Assembly (NCBI GenBank): GCA_963826715.1
Contig: CAWGYA010000008.1
Coordinates: 1,184,001-1,248,000 of the forward strand
Length of the DNA stretch: 64,000 nucleotides
DNA from: Candidatus Bathyarchaeota archaeon
Lineage (GTDB): Archaea > Thermoproteota > Bathyarchaeia > Bathyarchaeales > Bathycorpusculaceae
Direction of reading: 5' to 3'
The notes beneath the pieces were generated by a model. That model ran no database searches. It worked only from the letters and a program-made list of their open reading frames with translations, and was not told the origin of the DNA. Positions within the stretch are counted from its first letter, which is position 1. Every line of letters starts with the position of its first letter. This document shows positions 3,508 to 34,433 of this stretch, one piece after another. The position numbers and the translations under genes are program-made.

Positions 3508-4999
<1,492 letters not shown>

Positions 5000-23615: not shown

Positions 23616-25196
23616 TTACAGATTGGGTGTCACAATGCATTGAGCTTGCAGTTTCCGCTTAAAAGCTTCATAAAATGCTTGTCTATTCTGGTTGACGCTC
23701 CACTCCTCAAGGCTGCAGTCCGTATCCGAGTAGAATCTGAGAAGTGCTTGTTCTTTGCTTTCATTAACAAACTCAACCTTCTTTACTAGCCCGCAGTGGC
23801 TACGGTCAAGCTTTTCGGCAAACCTCAAAAAAGTGGAGAGTTCGGTCACAATCTCCTTGCTTGTATCATCCAATCTCTCTGCCTTCAGGGCTTTTTTAGA
23901 GGGCAGTTTTTTGCGGTGAAAGCGAGCAATGTTTGCCATTATCTGGATTTCTTGAGTGTCAAATCCAGGTAGCCCCGCGTTGCTAATGATGTAGTGAGAA
24001 TGTTGGTGGTGATTGTTAAATGACAGAAAGTCGCCGACATCATGCAATGCTGCGGCGTATTTTAGCATTTCACGCTCGCGATCCCCCATATTGTGCAGAC
24101 CAACCTGTTTACCGCTGTCGAAGAGTTCCAATGCGAGATCAGCTACGGTTTGGGAGTGTTTCTCGTCGAAGTTACATGACCTTCCTAAATGTAAAACGCT
24201 ACGGTTGCGCATGGGCGTTCTTTGTAGTTCTCGGAACCCCTCAAAGTTGGCAAGGTATTCGGCAAGTAAACCGTCTCTGAGTTCGCGGTGGCTAATATGG
24301 ATTTCCTCGAGACCGAACTCTTCCATGATTGCCTCAATAATTGCGGCGCCTGCAACTATGATATCTGCGCGGTCAGGGTTGATGGCGGGAATTTTTTTTC
24401 TCTCTCCCAAGGGCAGCCAGCAAAGTAAAGTAGCAACTTTTTTGAGATTTTTTCTGGTTAACAATAACTCCCCGCGGCCGTTGGTTTTTTTGAAGAGTTT
24501 ATTTGAGACCTCAGATAGGTTAATCATTGTTCCTGATGAACCGAAAGCTAATCTTGCCCCATACTCCAAAACCCTAGGTGTAATCGAGCTTATTTCTGCG
24601 AGGGCGTAGTCTTTAATCTTTTTATAGACCTCAGTTTTTACAGGTCCAATCCAGCTCTCCCCTATGAATTGCGTTGTAAGCCGAATTGCTCCCAATTTAA
24701 GGCTGTTAATGTAGAAACATTCATGCTGGTCGCCTATGGCTATCTCGGTGCTGCCGCCACCTAAATCTATGAAAAGAGCTTTTTGGTCACCGATATCTAT
24801 GCCGCTTGAAACCCCACGGCAAATCAGGCGTGCCTCGTCTTCGCCTGAAATAACGTCGACTTTGAGGCCTGTTTCTCTTTGGAGTTTGCTGAGGAACTCC
24901 TGTTGATTTTTTGCTTCGCGAATCGCTGAGGTGCCAACTGCAATAATCTCGGTGGCACCATAGGTTTTAGCTAGGGCTGCGAATTTACCACAGACAAATA
25001 TGGTGCGCTCCATTGCTTCGGGTTGCAGAAGGTTATCTTTGAATTCTCGCTCTCCTAGCCGCACTACTTCTTTTTCTTGGCTTATTGTTGTATAAGAGAA
25101 GTTTGGGTTTATTCTCACCACTAAAAGGCGAACAGCATTCGTACCGACATCAACAAAACCAACTACGCGTCCCGCGGCTTTTATGGTTGTTTCCAT
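23616..25196 (-). CDS. ppx: Exopolyphosphatase Ppx/GppA with C-terminal HD domain
   Basis: DVGTNAVRL, TSAIREAKN, DLGGGSTE, RADII, LHDVG. Confidence 0.93.
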   Translation of the reverse strand: METTIKAAGRVVGFVDVGTNAVRLLVVRINPNFSYTTISQEKEVVRLGEREFKDNLLQPEAMERTIFVCGKFAALAKTYGATEIIAVGTSAIREAKNQQEFLSKLQRETGLKVDVISGEDEARLICRGVSSGIDIGDQKALFIDLGGGSTEIAIGDQHECFYINSLKLGAIRLTTQFIGESWIGPVKTEVYKKIKDYALAEISSITPRVLEYGARLAFGSSGTMINLSEVSNKLFKKTNGRGELLLTRKNLKKVATLLCWLPLGERKKIPAINPDRADIIVAGAAIIEAIMEEFGLEEIHISHRELRDGLLAEYLANFEGFRELQRTPMRNRSVLHLGRSCNFDEKHSQTVADLALELFDSGKQVGLHNMGDREREMLKYAAALHDVGDFLSFNNHHQHSHYIISNAGLPGFDTQEIQIMANIARFHRKKLPSKKALKAERLDDTSKEIVTELSTFLRFAEKLDRSHCGLVKKVEFVNESKEQALLRFYSDTDCSLEEWSVNQNRQAFYEAFKRKLQAQCIVTPNL

Positions 25197-27493
25197 TCTA
25201 GCATCATTTCCCTGTCAAACGTTTTTTCAAACAAATCTTTCTTCTTATTAAAAGCCTGTTGTTCGAGCGTCAAATCTGTGTTAGTGAAGCACTCAGCAGT
25301 TACAGTTTTTGGAGTGACTCTGATACCTAAAATCTTGACTGCAGATTTGTGAGTGTAGTCTAAACTATCTGCGACCCGTAGTATAGCCGCTAGCATATTG
25401 ATTTTACGGAATATTTGGCGATTTAAGGGGGCAAACAGATATTGCCTTGGTGAGGGTAAACCTTTGCGGTGATATCTGGTGAGGGCTGCAATTATGCGTC
25501 TCTGACTGGATGAGAAAGGCAGCGCAGTGTCGTTTAGAATAATCTGGGCGGATTTTTTGTTGTGTTTGTTGACTCCAATTGAAAAGCCAATGTCATGAAG
25601 AACTGCTGCACATTCGAGCCAGCAGCGCTCCTGTCCACCCAACTTATGGAGAGATTTGACCCCATCAAATAGTGCTAACGAAAGATTAGTCACCTGCAAA
25701 TAATGTTCAATGTCTGGCCAGAGATTTTTCGAGAACTCTTCGCAGGCAATCACTATTCCCCTGCAATTTTGAACCATAGCCTTCTTATTGTTGCGGTCCA
25801 ACTTGAGGACTTCATCAATTGAAATTCCGCGGAGTAGCATCTGAGAGTAACTTTCAGGTAGTCCCTTATTTCGTAGTTCCTGTGCAGCATCCTCTACAGG
25901 GTAATCGAGCCTAATCAGTTGCACCCTAACAGGGTTAAAATCTAAAATAGCGTAAGCTGCTTGAGGGGTTCCATCACTTTGTCTACCCACACTTCCCGGG
26001 TTAATGAAGTGCACCCCGTTTGCTATCCTCAGAAACTGTTCATGGCTATGCCCCACTATAATGATGTCCGCGTCCACCTGGTCAGACAATTCTTTAAGCC
26101 GTGATTCAGGAGTATTATGATAAATATGTTCATTGATTGATTTTGGACTACCATGGGTTAACAATAACTTCTTATTTGCTGTCTGCAGCCTCATGGTCAG
26201 GCTTAGCACCTCAAGATAACTTTTTGAAGTGCTAGACAATGTTTTCTTTGCATATTCGAAAGCAAGATGTTTCTCGCTTTTGGCGTCGTTTTTGTTCTCT
26301 AAAACCTCTAAATCATAGTTCCCCAAAATGGAAACAACATTTTTTTGGCAAAGCATCTCCACGACTTCGTTGGGACTGGCTCCATACCCGATGGAGTCAC
26401 CAGCGTTCAGGAATACTTGTACACCCCGCTGCTCCGCATCTTCCAGTACCCTTTGCAGCGCTGGTAGGTTCGCGTGGATATCAGATAATATGGCAACTCT
26501 AACATTCTGCATTTCCGGTTTTTCTTTATTTTTTTCTTGAGTCATTGACAAGACGATGAGGCTGGTGGTTTTTCTAATTTGTTCAAATAAGCCGCTGTTA
26601 TTACAGGTGACCCAGAGTTCAACAAATCTGTGGTAATGATCCTCTTTTTTCTGTTGAATGTAAGCGGAGAAGTTCTCCAAAGCCTGATCTAGGGCGACTG
26701 TGTCAACCTTTACTCTATTTTTTTGGAATTTAGGTATGCATTCAACCCAAACCGTGCAGTCATGGAGCTCACCGAGTTCATCTTGAAACATTTTTATGAT
26801 GTCTATTTCTTTTTTGAGCTCATTCGGGTAAAGGGATGCAAAGATCTCCATAGTGTATCGAAGTTTCTTGGCGTAAATTCTCATTTTATGATGCTGAGGA
26901 TCAGCGCCTTCAATTTTTACATACTGTTGCATGGACAAAAAGTTGTCGAGTCTCTTGGAAATGTGCCGCTGAGCTTGCTGCGTAACCGCTATCAAATCGG
27001 AAGCTATGTGGGATTCAATTACTATCTGTTTGTAGACTTCCCGGATGTTCCCTAGTACTGCTGACGCCTCAAGTTCATCCAACCCATTTTTTACAGCGCT
27101 TTGTATATTTTCTCGGCTAGTTTTTTGGTCTTTAAGCAGCAATAATATTGCTGACTTCTCAGTTGGTGAAGTCAATTTTTTAATATACTGCTCAATAAAC
27201 TCGATTTGTACATCGAGATCTCGGACGCTTGAGAGCAAATGTGTAATCTTTTTTATTTTTTGTGTCCACATTTTGAATTGTTTTTTAGATAAGCATTCTT
27301 GAAAAATTGGAAGCGCAGCCCTTAGCCGACGGGAGATTACCCGGGTTTTGTGGACATATTCGATGTCCCTATCGGCGATTACTCCTTCAATTAACTCGAA
27401 AAAATTGTCTGTTAGTTTTAGGATGATTTCTGCGCCGAATCGGCAGTAACTATTGTCAACTTTACAGTTTTTGTTTTTGTTCGGCGTGTTCAT
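25181..27493 (-). CDS. CHAD + calcineurin-like metallophosphoesterase + Ppx-type HD fusion protein
   Basis: CHAD: HKTRVISRR, HKMRIYAKKLRY, QDELGELHD; MPE: SDIHAN, GDSIGYG, GNYD, HGSP, GHSH, NPGSVG; HD: LHDIG, YHRK, LRVADSLD. Confidence 0.85.
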   Translation of the reverse strand: MNTPNKNKNCKVDNSYCRFGAEIILKLTDNFFELIEGVIADRDIEYVHKTRVISRRLRAALPIFQECLSKKQFKMWTQKIKKITHLLSSVRDLDVQIEFIEQYIKKLTSPTEKSAILLLLKDQKTSRENIQSAVKNGLDELEASAVLGNIREVYKQIVIESHIASDLIAVTQQAQRHISKRLDNFLSMQQYVKIEGADPQHHKMRIYAKKLRYTMEIFASLYPNELKKEIDIIKMFQDELGELHDCTVWVECIPKFQKNRVKVDTVALDQALENFSAYIQQKKEDHYHRFVELWVTCNNSGLFEQIRKTTSLIVLSMTQEKNKEKPEMQNVRVAILSDIHANLPALQRVLEDAEQRGVQVFLNAGDSIGYGASPNEVVEMLCQKNVVSILGNYDLEVLENKNDAKSEKHLAFEYAKKTLSSTSKSYLEVLSLTMRLQTANKKLLLTHGSPKSINEHIYHNTPESRLKELSDQVDADIIIVGHSHEQFLRIANGVHFINPGSVGRQSDGTPQAAYAILDFNPVRVQLIRLDYPVEDAAQELRNKGLPESYSQMLLRGISIDEVLKLDRNNKKAMVQNCRGIVIACEEFSKNLWPDIEHYLQVTNLSLALFDGVKSLHKLGGQERCWLECAAVLHDIGFSIGVNKHNKKSAQIILNDTALPFSSSQRRIIAALTRYHRKGLPSPRQYLFAPLNRQIFRKINMLAAILRVADSLDYTHKSAVKILGIRVTPKTVTAECFTNTDLTLEQQAFNKKKDLFEKTFDREMMLEWKQP

Positions 27494-29600
27494 GCCAGAT
27501 TCCTCTGTTTTGGATTAGCCAGAATTGTGAATTAAGATTATTTTCACCCGATTTTGGGATGACTCTCTGGTATGTGCCATTACAGAGCAGTCTTCGTGCC
27601 TTAACATTGTCACGTAAATGGATTTTTAGAATGTCATCGAGAATTGCTTGTCGAATCCCAGGGTCAGGAACACTGAAGAGTACTTCAACCCGTTCGTTGA
27701 GGTTTCTATACATCAAATCGGAACTGCCGATAATAACTTCGCTGTCTGGGCCATTCTTGAAGTAATATATTCGGGCGTGCTCAAGAAAACGACCGACGAT
27801 TGAAATTACTGAGATATTCTCGCTAACTCCTTTGATTCCAGGTTTGAGGCAGCAGAGCGCACGGACATTGAGTTCAATTTTGATTCCAGCCATTGATGCA
27901 CGATAAAGAGCTTTGATTACATCTTTCTCTTCGAGGTTGTTTAGTTTAAACGCTAAGTACCCTTTGCCTGTTTGCTGATGAAACTCTATTTCGCGGTCTA
28001 TACGTTTTAAAATTTCATTTTTGAGTGTTTTAGGTGCAACGAGTAGGTGTTTGAAATCTTTCTCTTGTAATCCATTGACTAGTATGTTGAATAGTTCCTC
28101 AAGCTCAATGCCTACGTCATGTCTTGCGGTTAGATACCCTATGTCGCCATATATTTTAGCAGTTACTGCGTTATAGTTACCTGAACCGATATGTGAGTAA
28201 CGGACAAATTTATCTTTTTCTTTCCGTACAATCACGCATAATTTCGCATGGACTTTGAAATTCGGGAAATTATAAACTGCCTCAATACCTGCTTCTTTAA
28301 GTCGGGATACTAACAAGATATTGTTTTCTTCGTCGAATTTTGCTTTTAATTCAACAACTGCAGTGACTTTTTTCCCGTTTTTCCTTGCCTCTATAAGGGC
28401 ATCCACAATAGGCGATTTCGCATCCATGCGATACATCGTAATACATATTCTCTCCACAAAGCGGTCACACGCTGCCTCCTTAAGCAAATCCACAATTATT
28501 TCAAAGCTGTCATAAGGATGATAGAGTACAATATCACGTTTGGAGATAATCTGGAACAGGCTTTTTTCAGGAGTAAGTAGCGGCGTGATGGAGGGTAGAA
28601 AACTTTTATCTTTAAGGTCTGGGCGGTTCAATTTATGCAACTGCCAGAGGTCAACAAACCCAAGCGGACAATCAAGGTCGTAAGTTAAATAATCAACTAA
28701 CCCAAATTGTTTTACCAAGGCTTCTTTTATCTGAGGGGGCATGTTTTTATCGAATTCAAGGCGGCTGGGAAAACCTGTTTTCCTTTTTGAGAGTCCTTTC
28801 TTGACGGAGGCAAGAAAATCTGAGGATTCATCCATCAAGATTTCGATTTCACTATTGCGCGTTAATCGGAACGAATAGGCTGCTAAACTTTGCTCGTTTG
28901 GGAAAACAAGGTCCAGGTTGGACGCTGTAAGATCTTCGATAAAGACAAATTCATGTTGCATGTTCAATTTCTGCCTAAAACTGGATTGCGGAATTTCAAT
29001 TAGACGCATGAATTGCTCGGTGGGCAATTCGACCATGCAATAGTCTCCATTGTCAAAACCGTGAACGCAGAGGGCAACCTGAAGGTTCTCAATAACGGTG
29101 GTTTCCCAGTTTTGCCTATACACCTTTATGTTTGGTAAGATGTTTAACTGAAGGAGTGTTCGAAGTTTTTCCTTTTTGTTATCCGGTAGGTCTCGGAATT
29201 TTCTTATAATTATTTCTTCTTTTTCCAGTCTGGGCAACAACTCGTTTTTCCAGCATTCTGCTTGTCTTTCAATTAGTGTCAAAATCTCTATGCGAGTGGT
29301 CTCGATTTGCTCAATAGGCGTCATTCCATCCGTGGATTTTTCTTCAGGGACCTTTTTAATTTTCTTCATTAAACGCGCTATTCGGGTCATAAAAAACTCG
29401 TCAAGGTTGCTACCGCAGATAGCCAAAAACTTCACTCTTTCCAGAAGTGGATGCCACTCATCACGCGCTTCCTCAAGAATGCGTGCGTTGAAGCGAATCC
29501 AACTTAGTTCTCTGTTTATGTAATAACTGGGATTATCCAGTGATTTGTCTATAGTTCTGAGGCTGTTTTTTTCTGAATTGCAGATAGATGCGGCTGACAA
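27462..29600 (-). CDS. ppk1: Polyphosphate kinase 1
   Basis: NRELSW, SNLDEFF, HPYDSF, ELKAKFDEENN, KVHAK, GRFLEHARIY. Confidence 0.96.
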   Translation of the reverse strand: MSAASICNSEKNSLRTIDKSLDNPSYYINRELSWIRFNARILEEARDEWHPLLERVKFLAICGSNLDEFFMTRIARLMKKIKKVPEEKSTDGMTPIEQIETTRIEILTLIERQAECWKNELLPRLEKEEIIIRKFRDLPDNKKEKLRTLLQLNILPNIKVYRQNWETTVIENLQVALCVHGFDNGDYCMVELPTEQFMRLIEIPQSSFRQKLNMQHEFVFIEDLTASNLDLVFPNEQSLAAYSFRLTRNSEIEILMDESSDFLASVKKGLSKRKTGFPSRLEFDKNMPPQIKEALVKQFGLVDYLTYDLDCPLGFVDLWQLHKLNRPDLKDKSFLPSITPLLTPEKSLFQIISKRDIVLYHPYDSFEIIVDLLKEAACDRFVERICITMYRMDAKSPIVDALIEARKNGKKVTAVVELKAKFDEENNILLVSRLKEAGIEAVYNFPNFKVHAKLCVIVRKEKDKFVRYSHIGSGNYNAVTAKIYGDIGYLTARHDVGIELEELFNILVNGLQEKDFKHLLVAPKTLKNEILKRIDREIEFHQQTGKGYLAFKLNNLEEKDVIKALYRASMAGIKIELNVRALCCLKPGIKGVSENISVISIVGRFLEHARIYYFKNGPDSEVIIGSSDLMYRNLNERVEVLFSVPDPGIRQAILDDILKIHLRDNVKARRLLCNGTYQRVIPKSGENNLNSQFWLIQNRGIWHEHAEQKQKL

Positions 29601-30406: not shown

Positions 30407-30940
30407 CTATTCAGTTTGCTTTTTGTTGAAATAGTAGCGCACTAACTCGTCCGTTGACCATGGCAAGCAATCTTTGGCTTTGAATCCTAAAAGTTCAGCA
30501 TATCTGTGAATAGATCCGAGGTCACCTTCTATCTCTAGAAACTCAGGGATAAAATTGTAGTTGCCGAGGTATCGATCGATGTCAACGCGAACGTTCTCCA
30601 ACTTGAAGCTGACTCTATGCTTTTCCATCTGGTCAGTGACTGCTAAGCTTAAATTCTGCAGAATTCCAAGCGTGGTATCGAAATCTGAGACCTCCACAGA
30701 AAGCTCTTCTGCCTCTTTGGCGACCTGGTTTGCTTTAATTTTCTTGTAGGTTAGTTCGTTTTTCCTCTGAATTTTTCTCAAACGCAAAACGGCTCTATGT
30801 TTGCTGATTCCTCCGTCCGCGTAATCCAAGAAAAGTGTAGATATTTCGCCGTCGAAAATTTTTTTAGCCTTCAAATTATCAAGTGTTTTTTTAACCTTTT
30901 GACTGTTGATTTCAAGTATTTTTACTTCAATCTCTTGCAT
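30407..30940 (-). CDS. CYTH/triphosphate tunnel metalloenzyme (class IV adenylate cyclase-like)
   Basis: EIEVK (ExExK), LRLR, LTYK, K.R, LEIE. Confidence 0.9.
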   Translation of the reverse strand: MQEIEVKILEINSQKVKKTLDNLKAKKIFDGEISTLFLDYADGGISKHRAVLRLRKIQRKNELTYKKIKANQVAKEAEELSVEVSDFDTTLGILQNLSLAVTDQMEKHRVSFKLENVRVDIDRYLGNYNFIPEFLEIEGDLGSIHRYAELLGFKAKDCLPWSTDELVRYYFNKKQTE

Positions 30941-31037
30941 AAAGTTATGGAATCTACAAGAAGTTAAAAAACTTGAGCTGCAAAAAGCGTTAAAATTTTA
31001 TATATATCTTAAATATTAATAAACAAGTAGATATTAT

Positions 31038-31493
31038 ATGGCCAAAGGCAAACCTTGGACATTAGAAGAAGAAATTGATCTCCAAAAACTAGTTGAAGCA
31101 AATACTCATGTAGACACAATTGCAGCCCATTTCCGAAAGAAACCTGGCGCTATAATTATAAAATGTCAACGGTTAGGTCTAAAACTTAACTCAAAAGGTT
31201 ATGTGGACACTTCAATCTCCTTCCCAAGAGAACTTCCCAGCGTAGAAGATACACTAAAGATGCTAGCCGGTGCATTAAAAACCGCTACCAAACCAGGACT
31301 AAACAAAGCCGAGCTCCAACGCCTACAAACGGTCGCAACCATCGCCAAAACCTACAAGGAACTTCTCTCGGACTACATAAACTACCGCGAAATCGAAACC
31401 AAATTAAAAGAAGTAGAGGAACAAAATGCCCAACTACTTAAAGAAAGAAGCCCGAACCCTACGCCCCAACCAAATTCTTCCCAGATGGCATAA
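31038..31493 (+). CDS. Myb/HTH + coiled-coil protein, putative terminase small subunit
   Basis: PWTLEEEIDL Myb-like start, C-terminal heptad EIETKLKEVEEQNAQLL; overlaps the start of the large terminase. Confidence 0.55.
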   Translation: MAKGKPWTLEEEIDLQKLVEANTHVDTIAAHFRKKPGAIIIKCQRLGLKLNSKGYVDTSISFPRELPSVEDTLKMLAGALKTATKPGLNKAELQRLQTVATIAKTYKELLSDYINYREIETKLKEVEEQNAQLLKERSPNPTPQPNSSQMA

Positions 31494-32878
31494 CATCAAG
31501 CAAACAACCAACCAAATTCACGCCTCCATCAAACAAAATACAGTAGCGCTAAGTGCTGACCCACAACAATTCATCGAGCAAATTCTCGGCTTCAAACTAT
31601 ACTCATACCAAAAAGACTTCACTGAACTCTTCAAAAACAACCAATTCACCGCAGCCCGATGGTGCAGACAAAGCGGAAAAACTTACCTAATATGCGCATT
31701 ACTGCTCTGGTATGCAGTAACATATCCAAACAGCGCCATAGGAGTTGTTGGACCATCCTGGCGACAAACCAAACGCATCATAACCCGCATAACCAACTTC
31801 ACACACAACCTCCCACCACAAATCACATTTAAACCCCAAAAAACCCAAATAAAATTCACAAACGGAAGCAGCATAGAAGCCTTCCCAAACAACCCCGAAA
31901 CCATCAGAGGACCAACACTTCACCTAGTTTACGCTGATGAATTAAACTTCGTAGCCAACGACCAAGAACTCTACGACTCCATCCTCTACACATTAGGAAC
32001 AACCGACGGTAAATTCGTCTGCAGCAGCACCCCATGGCACACCGACAGCCTCTTCTACAAAATATTTAACCACAAAGACTACAGCATTTTCAAAACCTCT
32101 CACGTCCCAATTGAAAGAGCCTTAAGCCCAGAAGGACCACTAAAACCCAACATTATCCAACGCATAAAAACCCAAATGGGCGATGACCCATCACGCTGGC
32201 GCCGAGAAATGCACGCTGAATGGACTGAAGACGAAGACGTTTGGCTACCCCAAAGCCTAATCGCCGCTCTGCCTCGGCACCAAAAAAAACTGCCCAGAAG
32301 AACTCGCCGCTTTTGATCCTCAAACTCCCCAAGAAGGCGAATTCTTCGCTGGACTAGATTTAGCACAAACCCGCGACTACAGCGTCCTTTCAGTAATAGA
32401 ACGCAGAAACGATATCCTCTACCTGAGGCATCTAAAAATTTTCCAACAACCCGCAATCTACGCCAACATAATAGGTTACATAAAAACACTTCAAGACCGC
32501 TGGAACGGCTTTGAACGCATTCGAGTGGACTTCACCCGAGAAGGTCCCTCATTCATAGCCGACATGCAAAACGCCGGTATCGAAAACGCTGAAGGCGTCA
32601 ACTTTAGTGTCCCACGTAAAAGTGAAATGGCTGGCCTCCTCAAACAGCGTATGCTAAACAAACAATTCTTCTATCCACTACTAACTTGGGAACGACCTTA
32701 CAGAGGAGAAATCTGCAACGAACTCAACATAGAACGCTTCAACCTAAGAAAAGACGGCAACATCGGCTTCTCCCACCCACAAGGCACACACGACGATGTA
32801 TTCTGGAGCATAACACTTGCAATCTACTCAACCGCAAACATGGAACCGGAACCTTACCTGGCGATAATTCCCCTTTAA
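31426..32878 (+). pseudogene. Terminase large subunit interrupted by a +1 frameshift (ATPase 31426-32316; nuclease frame 32261-32878)
   Basis: Walker A RQSGKT, Walker B VYADE, SSTP coupling motif; the +1 frame gives FFAGLDLAQTRDYS...VDFT...GTHDDVFWS (RNase H-like nuclease). Confidence 0.85.
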
Positions 32879-33120
32879 TAACCCAAACCCAAACCAAACA
32901 TCTCCCACTACCACAACCTAACCAAACCATGCAAGAAGTGAACAAAAAATCAAGCTCCCCACAAGTAAAACACAGCTAAAAAACAAACCAAAACAGAAAA
33001 CCAGCCCAAACCACAACCCACGAAGTGAAAAAACAAAAAACCCCACAACCACGCAAAACAAAAAACCTTTTATCCCAAGTAAACTTCAAAAACAAACCAA
33101 GAAAGAACAAAATCCCTTCA
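32879..33120. repeat. A/C-rich low-complexity tract
   Basis: Hand count 156/180 nt A+C in 32881-33060; AAACC/ACAACC-like units. Confidence 0.85.
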
Positions 33121-33216
33121 ATTAATATATATTTTATTTTTTTAACTATAGAATATTTGTGAAATTTTAAGAGAAATATTTCACCATTATAGCTTGCCGA
33201 GAATCGCAAAACCGAC

Positions 33217-33316
33217 AATGAGACGAGCTTAGCGAATCTTGTTCAACAACCAAAAGTATCCCGCATTTGATCTCTTTTCAACCCGATGTTGGATACTAAT
33301 TCGCTGAGCATTCATT
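33217..33316 (+). ncRNA. Candidate structured RNA (long bulged hairpin)
   Basis: 33227-33237 pairs with 33299-33309, 33255-33261 with 33291-33297, 33217-33222 with 33311-33316; non-Watson-Crick pairs are G-U on the + strand. Confidence 0.4.
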
Positions 33317-33422
33317 TTTAGTAAGGGTGAGAGTTGGATTAAATCTGATTATTTTGGATTCAGTTGGTATTTCACAAATATTAAGTAATAATAAAGCCTA
33401 CTGTGCCCCAGGTAACCAATCA

Positions 33423-33686
33423 ATGACCTTAACCCTTGATCCTCAAACCAACACCCGAGTACAACTGGTAATTCACAGTTTATGCTTAAGCTGCTTAGGA
33501 GAAGCAATTTTCCTCCAAGTTTTAGTATTCTCCTCCATCTTAGGACAAGGTTACTTCAGAGCAGTGGAAACAAACTCAAGCATTCTTGCCTTCGAACTGC
33601 TCCTCATCGCTTTCACAACCATTTACTTCATCTACCTTTATCAAAAAACAATTCGCTCAAGCCTAAAACGCCAAACCGCAACCTAA
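33423..33686 (+). CDS. Small two-TM membrane protein
   Basis: ATG at 33423 (MTLTLDPQ) within the 33327 ORF; two hydrophobic helices, basic C-terminus. Confidence 0.55.
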   Translation: MTLTLDPQTNTRVQLVIHSLCLSCLGEAIFLQVLVFSSILGQGYFRAVETNSSILAFELLLIAFTTIYFIYLYQKTIRSSLKRQTAT

Positions 33687-33794
33687 CACCCAAAACCTAA
33701 GAAACATACCCAAACCCGCTAATTTTCAACTCACATTTAAAACATCCACAAACAACAAAACCCACAATAACCTTCAAAAGCAACCCATAAACCA

Positions 33795-34433
33795 TTGATT
33801 GCAATAATGATACCTGTTCTAAATGTTAATTGGCAAAGCCCATCAACCGAATACTCCCTCAGCGAACGCGACGCAGGTATCCTCTCGCTGATTGAAACCG
33901 AAGACTTAGCAGTCTTCACTTTCGATGGGCTCAAACGCAGAACAGGTTTGCATCCTGAAACACTCTCCCGAATACTCGCTCGACTCGAACAAGATGGCAT
34001 CATTAAAAAAGGACCCGACGGCTACCACGTAACCCCCAAAATTACCGAACTAAAACTTCACACCCCACGAGCCGAAGCGCCCACTACACCACTTATCCAA
34101 ACTTTTTTGCCCTCCGACCTACGCACTCAACAACTTATCCTCTCGCTAAGAGGCAAATGGTTTGGTAAACTGCGATGGCTGGGCATATCAGAGAATCTCC
34201 AAGGCGTCACCCTTAAATGGATAACTGAAGATGGAGGAATCCAAATCGCAGCAAACATCCAAGGCACCGCGCTTAACATCGAAGCAAAGTTCTTAACCAA
34301 CAACAACCTCAACGCAGCACTCAAAGCTTCATACCAGCTGATGTCACTGATCGGCAAAATGTGCATAGCCTCAAGCCGACCCCCAATCGCCCGAAACGTG
34401 GGATACTTCGGTCGTCAATACATGCCCGCATAA
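33795..34433 (+). CDS. Winged-helix DNA-binding protein with uncharacterised C-terminal domain
   Basis: LSERD..IL, FTFDGLKRRTGLHPETLSRILARLEQDGII..GYHVT. Confidence 0.75.
   Translation: MIAIMIPVLNVNWQSPSTEYSLSERDAGILSLIETEDLAVFTFDGLKRRTGLHPETLSRILARLEQDGIIKKGPDGYHVTPKITELKLHTPRAEAPTTPLIQTFLPSDLRTQQLILSLRGKWFGKLRWLGISENLQGVTLKWITEDGGIQIAANIQGTALNIEAKFLTNNNLNAALKASYQLMSLIGKMCIASSRPPIARNVGYFGRQYMPA

What the first reader, a model, noticed from the sequence alone, without database searches (positions are those of the whole stretch)
31038..32878. Orphan terminase module (TerS-like + TerL) with no other viral genes
Seen: a Myb/HTH-coiled-coil gene overlaps a large-terminase gene whose ATPase (RQSGKT, VYADE, STP) and nuclease (GLD, D, HDD) motifs are all recognisable. 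It is flanked directly by cellular genes (CYTH on the left; membrane and wHTH genes, then rps10, on the right). I found no portal, capsid, integrase, tRNA or att repeat anywhere in 64 kb. Known: tailed-virus terminases normally sit beside portal and head genes. Inference: this is either a minimal provirus relic, or a domesticated or self-mobile two-gene DNA cutting/translocating module (GTA-like, packaging parasite, or new mobile element).
Basis: partly seen in the sequence, partly recalled or inferred. Interest (0 to 1): 0.8.

Follow-up and report, generated by a model that had tools for sequence, protein, structure and literature searches.

The report
Stand-alone archaeal terminase gene pair
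A two-gene DNA-packaging (terminase) module from tailed viruses sits alone among ordinary genes of a soil archaeon; relatives carry many such lone pairs kept intact by selection, although this copy is broken by a one-base frameshift.

Summary
A TerS-like gene (31038-31493) overlaps a TerL gene with all ATPase and nuclease motifs, between syntenic cellular genes. No capsid, integrase or tRNA lies in the window. But TerL is split by a +1 frameshift at 32263-32269: a 296-aa ATPase ORF, with the nuclease part in the next frame.

Contigs of three public runs show the same state. Close relatives carry an unshifted 484-aa allele and a compensated 483-aa allele (A7 instead of A8).

The pair is not unique. 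The genome (Bathyarchaeia by homologue names) has four copies. One ends a complete HK97 tailed provirus.

Of 41 related genomes, 33 have the family. Of 27 lone-pair loci examined, 20 have an intact TerL, with no provirus gene within about 7-9 kb. In a 30-row tree, the window copy lies in a clade of 14 copies, all of them lone pairs.

Thirteen TerL dN/dS estimates for lone-pair copies are 0.055-0.126, and the catalytic motifs are kept in all 30 aligned copies. Homology between copies stops at the two genes. Four proviruses lack exactly this pair.

Best reading: a discrete terminase cassette lineage maintained by selection, probably acting on capsids of related viruses. Its function is unproven. 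It is a new variant of a known kind.

The parts
30942..31037 (+). AT-rich spacer between the divergent CYTH gene and TerS, with a TATA-like run (TTTTATATATAT) about 30-45 nt before the TerS ATG; presumed cassette promoter
   Evidence: Sequence printed. Other lone-pair copies show TTTATAA/TTATATA boxes at a similar distance. Promoter function is inferred, not shown.
31038..31493 (+). TerS-like gene, 151 aa: N-terminal three-helix DNA-binding domain followed by a long helix; its end overlaps the TerL start
   Evidence: ORF. No Pfam or PADLOC hit. 36% identical to the gene directly upstream of TerL in the C7 provirus. Alignment A1 of 9 sequences has 23 invariant columns. AF2 model: helices 9-20, 25-32, 36-46 (pLDDT 85-91) and helix 90-137. 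Foldseek found nothing significant; the best local fit is the GcrA DNA-binding domain 5yiu.
31426..32316 (+). TerL, ATPase domain reading frame (296-aa ORF ending at TGA 32314-32316); Walker A RQSGKT, Walker B VYADE, coupling motif STP
   Evidence: Pfam Terminase_6N E 2.5e-18. PDB sequence search hits T4 gp17, E 3.5e-12. Motifs aligned.
32263..32269 (+). Primary frameshift site: 7 nt (gccgctc) where intact homologues have 6; one extra base
   Evidence: Three-frame translation and comparison with intact copies. The unshifted allele P0122 reads SLIAACLGTKKNC.
32279..32286 (+). A8 homopolymer. An A7 state restores the frame (allele P0001, 483 aa, reads SLIAALPRHQKNC)
   Evidence: Contigs of 3 runs spanning this run show no indel relative to the window.
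32270..32878 (+). TerL, linker and RNase H-like nuclease domain in the +1 frame (GLDLAQ, RVD, GTHDDVFW motifs); no start codon in this frame before 32525
   Evidence: 76-78% identical to intact homologues.
32879..33326 (+). A+C-rich (G+T-poor) stretch after TerL with no supported gene. Homology to other cassettes ends at 32871-32900
   Evidence: The imperfect direct repeats D1 and D2 lie here. The ORF listing ORF on the minus strand (32976-33218, 80 aa) has no Pfam hit and nothing else supports it.
30407..30940 (-). Left flank: cellular CYTH-domain gene (not part of the cassette)
   Evidence: Pfam CYTH E 3.1e-15. Found beside PPK in 9 of 10 relatives' loci.
33795..34433 (+). Right flank: cellular winged-helix gene (not part of the cassette)
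   Evidence: Weak MarR/wHTH Pfam hits below cut-off. 75% identical orthologue directly beside CYTH in G015, with about 800 bp between and no TerS/TerL.

Best explanation
The window holds one copy of a discrete two-gene terminase cassette: its own promoter region, a TerS-like DNA-binding protein and a TerL ATPase-nuclease. The lineage derives from the packaging module of tailed HK97 proviruses of this Bathyarchaeia genus ('type A' here). It lives on by itself in cellular loci.

Shown:
- The pair recurs as an isolated unit in most genomes of the genus.
- Both genes are kept open, with catalytic residues, under purifying selection.
- Some copies are inherited at syntenic loci, while the window copy sits at a locus that is empty in a relative.
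- The same pair is exactly present or exactly absent inside related proviruses.

The window allele is currently switched off by a +1 frameshift. Close relatives carry an unshifted allele and a compensated allele (A8 to A7), so this locus has been functional recently.

Inferred, not shown: the cassette works in trans on procapsids made by resident or infecting type A viruses. In this model TerS recognises a site in or near the cassette, and TerL cuts there and docks on the portal. Chromosomal DNA starting at the cassette is then packaged, as in satellite piracy or lateral-transduction-like gene transfer. This would spread the cassette and its downstream neighbours.
For: Recurrence.
- The genome has 4 copies.
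- 33 of 41 related genomes have a match at E<=1e-5.
- 27 lone-pair loci have no other match among 36 reference provirus proteins within about 7-9 kb. 9 loci have the full provirus order MCP...tail-p148-p80-TerS-TerL-ABC/GNAT.
- In metagenomes, none of the 11 closest relatives of the window TerL with usable flanks (66-77% identical to P0001; L106 and L107 look like the same sequence) has p148, p80 or ABC/GNAT beside it. The more distant 52-61% group mostly does.

Selection.
- 20 of the 27 lone-pair TerL genes are single open ORFs.
- All Walker A, Walker B, STP and nuclease Asp motifs are kept in the 30 aligned copies.
- 13 NG86 dN/dS estimates for lone-pair TerL are 0.055-0.126. They include two unsaturated pairs (0.106 at dS 0.097; 0.074 at dS 0.085).
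- Three provirus pairs gave 0.030-0.057.
- One usable TerS pair gave 0.12.

Lineage. The window copy lies in a clade of 14 copies, all lone pairs, with SH-aLRT 100.

Discreteness.
- DNA homology between the window copy and other copies runs from 31036 to 32871-32900 only.
- Four type A proviruses have p80 joined to ABC/GNAT without the pair. One junction is an exact ATGA overlap.
- In this genome's contig C5, a provirus is split exactly at p80|TerS by 22.6 kb.

Cellular context.
- A relative (G015) has CYTH next to wHTH with no cassette.
- No tyrosine integrase lies in the window.
- 0 of 12 lone pairs in 5 genomes has an integrase within 60 kb on its contig.

Alleles. The locus has 484-aa unshifted, 296-aa broken and 483-aa compensated alleles.

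Possible helpers. This genome has an apparently intact type A provirus.

Consistent with directional packaging. Synteny between species holds upstream of TerS and breaks just after TerL, and TerL 3' fragments are stacked downstream.
Against: The window copy itself is frameshifted, and contigs of 3 runs agree.

7 of the 27 lone-pair TerL genes are broken. The module is therefore dispensable and often lost.

No expression data exist; no RNA holder was listed.

No pac site, portal contact or packaged host DNA has been shown.

TerS has no family-level match.

Two genomes with intact lone pairs gave no hit to the type A/B capsid protein: G010 (92% complete) and G022 (95% complete). A helper would have to come from outside.

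The dN/dS values are pairwise NG86 estimates and many pairs are near saturation; 5 of 21 could not be computed.

L071 and L072 may be one locus assembled twice (95.6% identical segments in one MAG).

'Lone pair' means no homologue of my 36 reference proteins nearby. Unrelated mobile DNA around some copies is not excluded; AbrB/PIN genes and tRNA-like fragments occur downstream of several.
Confidence: 0.5

Rival explanations
1. Neutral relics. Each lone pair is what is left of a type A provirus after the rest was deleted. The terminase genes lie at the provirus end, so they survive longest. They have no function and are decaying; the window copy is one such pseudogene.
For: The family comes from proviruses in which TerS-TerL(-ABC/GNAT) is the terminal module. 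Copy 2 of this genome is visibly the displaced end of a truncated provirus. 7 of the 27 lone-pair TerL genes are broken, including the window copy and copy 4. Many TerL fragments exist in relatives. Krupovic et al. 2019 (PMC6563490, passages read) read a lone TerS-TerL in Nitrosopumilus koreensis as a likely relic.
Against: dN/dS is 0.055-0.126 over divergences with dS around or above 1, and 20 of 27 copies are open. Under neutrality essentially all would be riddled with stops. Each broken copy has only one lesion. None of the 27 keeps p80, p148 or tail fragments, although random deletions should often leave them. A clade of 14 copies, all lone pairs, with long internal branches implies long persistence as a pair. 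The compensated allele at this very locus argues for restored function.
Confidence: 0.15
2. Host defence by interference. The host keeps the cassette because a resident TerS/TerL competes with or poisons the packaging motor of infecting type A viruses, or cuts their DNA. This would be a form of superinfection exclusion.
For: Purifying selection and vertical inheritance at syntenic loci in three groups of species. The C-terminal half is the more conserved against provirus TerL: 76% versus 54% for the window copy. Several lone pairs have AbrB/PIN toxin-antitoxin-like neighbours. All 7 lesions fall between aa 208 and 310; a uniform-placement simulation gives P about 5.6e-4. That pattern would leave a TerS plus ATPase-only product that might still interfere.
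Against: No PADLOC family matches TerS or TerL. Both ATPase and nuclease motifs are fully conserved, which a decoy would not need. The cassette also sits inside proviruses as their only recognisable terminase. There is no experimental evidence.
Confidence: 0.17
3. Self-mobile element. The pair moves itself, with the TerL nuclease acting as a homing endonuclease or transposase and TerS as the targeting subunit.
For: Presence or absence is exact at gene boundaries in proviruses, once between two ATGA tetranucleotides. The pair was inserted at CYTH|wHTH in this genome relative to G015. In L059 versus L064 the module is 96.6% identical while the left flank is 87%, which suggests replacement or transfer of the module alone.
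Against: There are no near-identical dispersed copies within a genome; the four copies here are 48-55% identical over the ATPase part. The only flanking inverted repeat in the window is 37 nt, 70% complementary and AT-rich, which is probably chance. No target duplication was seen. The nearest relative of the window copy is only about 75% identical in DNA, so there has been no recent movement.
Confidence: 0.1
4. The break in TerL is an assembly or homopolymer error and the gene is really intact.
For: An A8 run lies 10 nt after the shift, and an A7 allele exists in another public assembly.
Against: Independently built contigs from 3 runs span 32263-32286 with no indel, one of them carrying two nearby SNPs. 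A separate assembly also yields the same 296-aa product (P0121). The primary lesion is not in the homopolymer. Caveats: depth is low (3.5-6.8) and the runs belong to one study, which may be the source of the window.
Confidence: 0.05

Closest known systems
Large terminase of tailed viruses (T4 gp17 type; Pfam Terminase_6N / Terminase_6C)
   Same: Same two-domain enzyme, with Walker A/B ATPase, STP coupling motif and RNase H-like nuclease with conserved Asp residues. It matches Terminase_6N, PHROG phrog_2 via the provirus copy and gp17 structures by sequence. A small DNA-binding partner gene sits upstream and overlaps it.
   Different: It is not next to portal, protease or capsid genes. It stands alone among cellular genes with its own upstream AT-rich region. 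This allele is frameshifted.
NitKor-E1 of Nitrosopumilus koreensis AR1 (Krupovic et al. 2019, PMC6563490; passages read)
   Same: An archaeal TerS-TerL pair with no other tailed-virus gene nearby and a VapBC system next to it. The authors state that a terminase had not been seen outside viruses and call its role enigmatic.
   Different: That is a single case inside an integrase-bearing cryptic element, read as a relic. Here there are dozens of copies across a genus, without integrases nearby, forming a clade of their own under purifying selection. I did not compare the sequences.
Phage satellites that redirect packaging (SaPI/PICI small-terminase piracy) and lateral transduction (recalled from general knowledge; no call)
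   Same: The proposed logic is the same: a chromosomal element supplies its own DNA-recognition subunit and uses a helper's capsids, and packaging starts in situ and runs into neighbouring host DNA.
   Different: Satellites are roughly 5-15 kb, with integrase, replication and regulatory genes, and usually carry TerS or a redirecting factor but not TerL. This unit is about 1.9-2.2 kb, with only TerS and TerL and no integrase. No packaging has been shown.
Gene transfer agents and the domesticated head-tail clusters proposed for Thaumarchaeota (PMC6563490, PMC5797428; passages read)
   Same: Virus-derived morphogenesis genes retained by selection in archaeal chromosomes without att sites or replication genes.
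   Different: GTAs keep the structural cluster. Here only the packaging enzyme is kept, and the related structural clusters in this genome belong to proviruses: one type is about 86-90% identical between two species at non-syntenic sites, which suggests an active virus.

Membership tests
Large terminase subunit (TerL) | N-terminal ASCE ATPase with Walker A, Walker B and coupling motif | tested here: met
   Pfam Terminase_6N E 2.5e-18. RQSGKT, VYADE and STP align with 29 homologues. T4 gp17 by sequence, E 3.5e-12.
Large terminase subunit (TerL) | C-terminal RNase H-like nuclease with conserved acidic residues | tested here: met
   GLDLAQ, RVD and GTHDD columns are conserved in all 30 copies. 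Terminase_6C is recorded for some close homologues. The window C-part alone gave no Pfam hit at E 0.01.
Large terminase subunit (TerL) | One continuous open reading frame | tested here: not met
   +1 frameshift at 32263-32269. Intact in alleles P0122 and P0001.
Large terminase subunit (TerL) | Encoded beside portal and head genes of a tailed virus | tested here: not met
   No provirus homologue in the window apart from TerS and TerL. No capsid or integrase hit in the window.
Small terminase subunit (TerS) | Small protein with an N-terminal helix-turn-helix domain plus a helical oligomerisation region, encoded just upstream of TerL | tested here: met
   AF2 model with a three-helix N-domain (pLDDT 85-91) and a 48-residue helix. 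The gene overlaps the TerL start in the window. Where the script finished (21 of 28 copies), most TerS ORFs abut or overlap TerL.
Small terminase subunit (TerS) | Sequence or fold match to a described TerS family | tested here: inconclusive
   No Pfam or PADLOC hit for the window protein. The provirus homologue gives only weak HTH_7 and 'transcriptional regulator' PHROG hits. Foldseek against PDB found nothing at E<=0.001.
Phage satellite (PICI/SaPI-like) | Own integrase, replication module and att sites | tested here: not met
   No integrase in the window or near 12 lone pairs in 5 genomes. No tRNA. No convincing flanking repeats.
Gene transfer agent | Host-retained head-tail structural gene cluster | tested here: not met
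   No structural genes at the locus. The structural clusters elsewhere in the genome lie in proviruses with their own terminases.
Insertion sequence / transposon | Terminal inverted repeats, target duplication and several near-identical copies | tested here: not met
   Only a 70% complementary AT-rich 37-nt pair. Copies within the genome are 48-55% identical over the ATPase part.
Decaying provirus remnant (pseudogenes) | Relaxed constraint (dN/dS near 1) and multiple disruptions | tested here: not met
   dN/dS is 0.118-0.126 for the window copy against its nearest relatives, and dN is not raised on its branch (0.162 versus 0.170 to the same outgroup). It carries a single lesion.

The most novel reading that the evidence does not exclude
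A new kind of minimal virus-derived element: a terminase-only cassette of about 2 kb (promoter, TerS, TerL). It persists in archaeal chromosomes and uses the capsids of related tailed viruses to package and transfer the chromosomal DNA next to it. Such a dispersed engine for lateral transduction would sit between a phage satellite and a gene transfer agent.
Probability: 0.3. Interest if true: 0.85.

Novelty: new variant of a known kind. Interest (0 to 1): 0.68.

Why it matters
Terminases are treated as hallmark genes of tailed viruses and herpesviruses. A lone terminase in a genome is routinely scored as a prophage trace. A 2019 survey of archaeal mobile elements stated that the terminase complex had not been found in non-viral elements, and called one lone pair enigmatic (PMC6563490).

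Here the lone pair is the commonest state of one terminase lineage in a widespread soil archaeal genus, and selection keeps both enzymatic activities.

If the pairs act on helper capsids, they would be a very small packaging parasite and a possible route of gene transfer in uncultured Bathyarchaeia. If they interfere with viruses, they would be a new kind of defence.

Either way, provirus-prediction tools that count TerL as viral evidence will miscall these loci.

Tried and rejected
1. The A8 run as the primary lesion. Rejected. Alignment with intact copies and allele P0122 shows that the A8 run reads normally in the nuclease frame (GTKKNC). The extra base lies upstream at 32263-32269, and the A-run is where allele P0001 compensates.

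2. Long-read homopolymer error. Contigs of 3 runs show no indel. The runs belong to one study and depth is low.

3. The A+C strand skew of 31.1-34.4 kb as a mark of foreign DNA. Rejected as specific evidence. The skew is regional and strand-bound. About a dozen such regions (20 overlapping 2-kb rows) occur in the genome, and neighbouring cellular genes share it.

4. 'Terminase-less' structural clusters as partners of the lone pairs (a dispersed GTA). Rejected. The C5 cluster and its G014 counterpart carry a different TerL (444 aa, phrog_2) in the canonical position.

5. tRNA or att sites.
- ARAGORN found no tRNA in the window.
- In the 32 loci scanned, tRNAs lie 0.2-8 kb from the pair in 4 loci and none abuts TerL.
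- An Rfam E-value search of L075, L077 and L066 found no tRNA at the TerL-adjacent tRNA-like fragments that I saw by eye. Those fragments stay unconfirmed.

6. Exact insertion boundaries from the G015 empty site. The intergenic DNA is too diverged. Only weak matches came back (E 0.001-0.19), and one of them was not at the orthologous position.

7. Fold match for TerS. Nothing significant.

8. PADLOC. No hit for TerS or TerL.

9. Literature.
- The six exact phrases 'orphan terminase', 'solitary terminase', 'stand-alone terminase', 'standalone terminase', 'terminase-like transposase' and 'terminase-only' gave 0 papers.
- Searches for Bathyarchaeota+terminase+provirus and terminase+domesticated+archaea+large subunit gave no description of lone terminase pairs in Bathyarchaeia, judging from the listings and the passages read.
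- Supplements were not opened and may hold provirus gene tables that bear on this.

10. RNA evidence. No RNA holder was listed for the stretch. No conclusion is drawn from that.

11. IMG/VR. The 8 viral contigs related to the window TerL are only 52-57% identical. Seven of the 8 show p148 and/or p80 upstream of TerL, and the eighth has tail-tube and tail genes plus p148. None belongs to the window's lone-pair clade.

13. Complex prediction, the search of protein representatives and the protein-atlas search were not used. TerS-TerL is a textbook pair, and a pass would not separate the hypotheses.
Full report
WHAT IS IN THE WINDOW

The window is archaeal: it carries an SSU rRNA at 3509-4999. Named homologues of the terminase come from Candidatus Bathyarchaeota/Bathyarchaeia metagenome bins.

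At 31038-31493 lies a 151-aa ORF. Its end overlaps an ORF starting at 31426 that matches Pfam Terminase_6N (E 2.5e-18).

However, TerL is split.
- The ATPase frame stops at 32314-32316, after 296 aa.
- The nuclease domain (GLDLAQ ... GTHDDVFW) continues in the +1 frame to 32878.
- Comparison with intact homologues puts one extra base in the seven letters gccgctc at 32263-32269.
- This is not in the A8 run at 32279-32286, which reads normally as part of GTKKNC in the nuclease frame.

Contigs built independently from three public soil runs of one study span the site without an indel. One of them carries two nearby SNPs. The runs may be the source samples and depth is only 3.5-6.8, so this is supporting rather than independent proof.

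THREE ALLELES

The protein collection holds three versions of this gene from close relatives:
- P0122, 484 aa, in the unshifted frame (SLIAACLGTKKNC).
- P0121, 296 aa, identical to the window product.
- P0001, 483 aa, with the extra base and an A7 run (SLIAALPRHQKNC). A second, compensating frameshift restored the frame after six altered residues.

The simplest order is intact, then broken (the window state), then restored.

FLANKS

- PPK, a 152-aa gene and CYTH form a syntenic block. In the 10 relatives' loci fetched, PPK was found in 10, CYTH in 9 and p152 in 7.
- In G015 the winged-helix gene (75% identical) follows CYTH after about 800 bp, with no terminase. In the window the gap is 2855 bp.
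- The window has no tRNA.
- None of the genome's 18 tyrosine-integrase hits or 2 capsid hits lies in the window.
- Of 36 reference provirus proteins, only TerS and TerL match there.

THE PAIR IS ONE OF MANY

The genome (2.64 Mb, 8 contigs) has four copies.

Copy 3 (contig C7) ends a tailed provirus with this order: HK97 capsid (Pfam Phage_capsid, PHROG major head), tail tube, a 1281-aa tail protein, p148, p80, TerS, TerL, and an ABC-ATPase/GNAT fusion. I call this 'type A'.

Copy 2 (C5) is TerS (frameshifted)-TerL-ABC/GNAT. A truncated type A provirus ends with p148-p80 22.6 kb upstream on the same strand, so the break lies exactly at p80|TerS.

Copy 4 (C8) has frameshifts in both genes.

Across 41 related genomes, 33 have a match. 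I fetched about 20-kb stretches around the near-full-length copies and searched them with 36 proteins of the C7 provirus.
- 9 loci show the full type A order.
- 27 loci show TerS-TerL and nothing else from the provirus.
- Clustering all ORFs within 7 kb of these 27 found no other gene shared by more than 5 loci.
- None of 12 lone pairs in five genomes has a tyrosine integrase within 60 kb on its contig. Two proviruses in G014 have an integrase about 4 and 13 kb beyond the TerL end.
- In metagenome contigs, the closest relatives of the window TerL (66-77%) are again lone pairs wherever flanks exist: 11 loci, 7 of them with more than 1.3 kb upstream. L106 and L107 look like the same sequence.
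- The 52-61% group is mostly type A. A further set at about 55% had no recognisable neighbour and stays unclassified.

THE PAIR IS A DISCRETE UNIT

- DNA similarity between the window copy and its nearest relatives (73-76%) runs from 31036 to 32871-32900 and no further.
- Four type A proviruses have p148-p80 followed directly by ABC/GNAT. In L092, p80's stop and the ABC/GNAT start share ATGA. In L172, L173 and L175 there is a spacer of about 105-200 nt.
- At least two of these proviruses have a distant TerL (33-35%) about 15-20 kb upstream instead.
- A second provirus type (C5, and G014 at 86-90% DNA identity but in non-syntenic surroundings) carries a different 444-aa TerL in the usual place before the head genes. 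The terminase module is therefore exchangeable in these viruses.

SELECTION

- 20 of the 27 lone-pair TerL genes are single open ORFs.
- The 7 broken ones have one lesion each: four frameshifts and three point nonsense mutations.
- All 30 aligned copies keep the Walker A/B, STP and nuclease Asp columns.
- Pairwise NG86 dN/dS is 0.055-0.126 for 13 lone-pair comparisons, including two at low divergence (0.106 and 0.074). It is 0.030-0.057 for three provirus pairs. Five of the 21 pairs were saturated.
- The window copy gives 0.118-0.126. Its dN to a common outgroup (0.162) is no higher than that of an intact sister copy (0.170). It shows no decay beyond the frameshift.
- One usable TerS pair gives 0.12.
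- In a quick IQ-TREE tree of 30 copies, the window copy falls in a clade of 14 copies, all lone pairs (SH-aLRT 100). A second all-lone-pair clade of 4, and 3 scattered lone pairs, lie among provirus copies. The root is arbitrary.

INHERITANCE

Three groups of lone pairs share upstream flanks across species:
- G000 copy 4, G002 and G011.
- G023, G010 and G001.
- G014, G023 and G022.

In one case the flank and the module are equally diverged (88%), which fits vertical descent. In another the module is 96.6% identical against 87% for the flank, which suggests that the module alone was replaced.

Synteny regularly ends just after TerL. Downstream one finds unrelated genes, AbrB/PIN pairs, and TerL 3'-end fragments that always reach the stop codon.

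TerS

The protein has no Pfam or PADLOC match. An AF2 model from 9 homologues shows a confident three-helix N-terminal domain and a long C-terminal helix. Foldseek finds nothing significant; the best local fit is the GcrA DNA-binding domain. The TerS label rests on position, architecture and co-inheritance with TerL.

READING

The data exclude simple neutral decay for the family. They show a cassette that has lived for a long time as a two-gene unit.

What it does is inferred. Both enzymatic halves are conserved, and TerS is the fast-evolving, specificity-giving part. Related capsid-producing proviruses share the genus (one intact-looking in this genome). Rearrangement is polarised downstream of TerL. 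I therefore favour action in trans on helper capsids, as packaging piracy or transduction.

Interference with infecting viruses and self-mobility remain live rivals.

The window allele is off unless slippage on the A8 run rescues it.

LITERATURE

Passages read in PMC6563490 describe one lone TerS-TerL in a thaumarchaeal cryptic element and state that terminases were unknown outside viruses. Passages in PMC5797428, PMC11697101 and PMC10848311 describe proviruses only. The phrase searches found nothing. Supplements were closed.

Noticed in passing
window 31100-34400; G000 C5:100001-117000; C8:3501-55500; C2:485501-488000 and others: Patches of strong strand-bound A+C excess (2-kb windows up to 0.69 A+C; genome mean 0.50, sd 0.04). 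Plus-strand genes there have up to 89% A or C at third codon positions, and minus-strand genes the reverse. Two of the four terminase copies and three integrase ORFs lie in such patches. The cause is unknown.
   Followed up: partly
L008, L056, L058, L063, L068, L083 and window 32263-32269: All 7 broken lone-pair TerL genes carry their single lesion between residues about 208 and 310 of about 480, around the ATPase-nuclease linker. A uniform-placement simulation gives P about 5.6e-4. Split genes may be tolerated, or an ATPase-only product may be useful.
   Followed up: partly
L065 4397-5513; L069 11194-11427; L070 4492-4945; L077 6243-6499; L105 downstream of TerL: Solo TerL 3'-end fragments are stacked downstream of intact lone pairs. 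Each reaches the stop codon with a variable 5' end. In L105 AbrB-like and PIN-like genes lie between TerL and the fragment, and AbrB-like genes also follow TerL in several other loci. Short tRNA-like fragments seen by eye after TerL in L075, L077 and L066 were not confirmed by Rfam.
   Followed up: partly
G000 C5:155728-177776 and G014 C1:1686664-1708775 (L085, L086, L087, L094): A 22-kb tailed provirus of a second type is 86-90% identical in DNA between two species whose PPK proteins are only 74% identical. It sits in non-syntenic surroundings and has its own 444-aa TerL. This suggests a currently active virus that crosses species.
   Followed up: partly
G000 C2:410169-411744; C4:10062-11658; C5:156302-158009; C7:66844-68590 and 154564-156253; C8:470320-471823 and 600382-601981: A three-gene set (a roughly 200-aa protein, an ABC-type ATPase and a GNAT acetyltransferase) recurs at least 7 times in the genome. 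In type A proviruses a fused ABC-ATPase/GNAT gene follows TerL (PHROG families annotated 'ABC transporter'). Its function in virus biology is unclear.
   Followed up: no
G000 C7:112000-121700 (beside the C7 provirus): By eye (no family search), the genes next to the provirus end look like DNA phosphorothioation (Dnd-type) genes: a cysteine desulfurase-like gene, a PAPS-reductase-like gene, an SMC-like ATPase and others.
   Followed up: no
window 25181-29600: Polyphosphate kinase next to a 770-aa ORF. By eye (no family search) the latter looks like a CHAD, metallophosphoesterase and HD-domain protein. The PPK gene is syntenic across the genus and served as the locus anchor.
   Followed up: partly
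window 30990-31026 and 33134-33170: A 37-nt AT-rich inverted repeat (70% complementary) brackets the cassette plus 256 nt of downstream DNA. It is probably chance. Part of the right arm weakly matches the G015 empty-site spacer (36 nt, 83%, E 0.001).
   Followed up: partly
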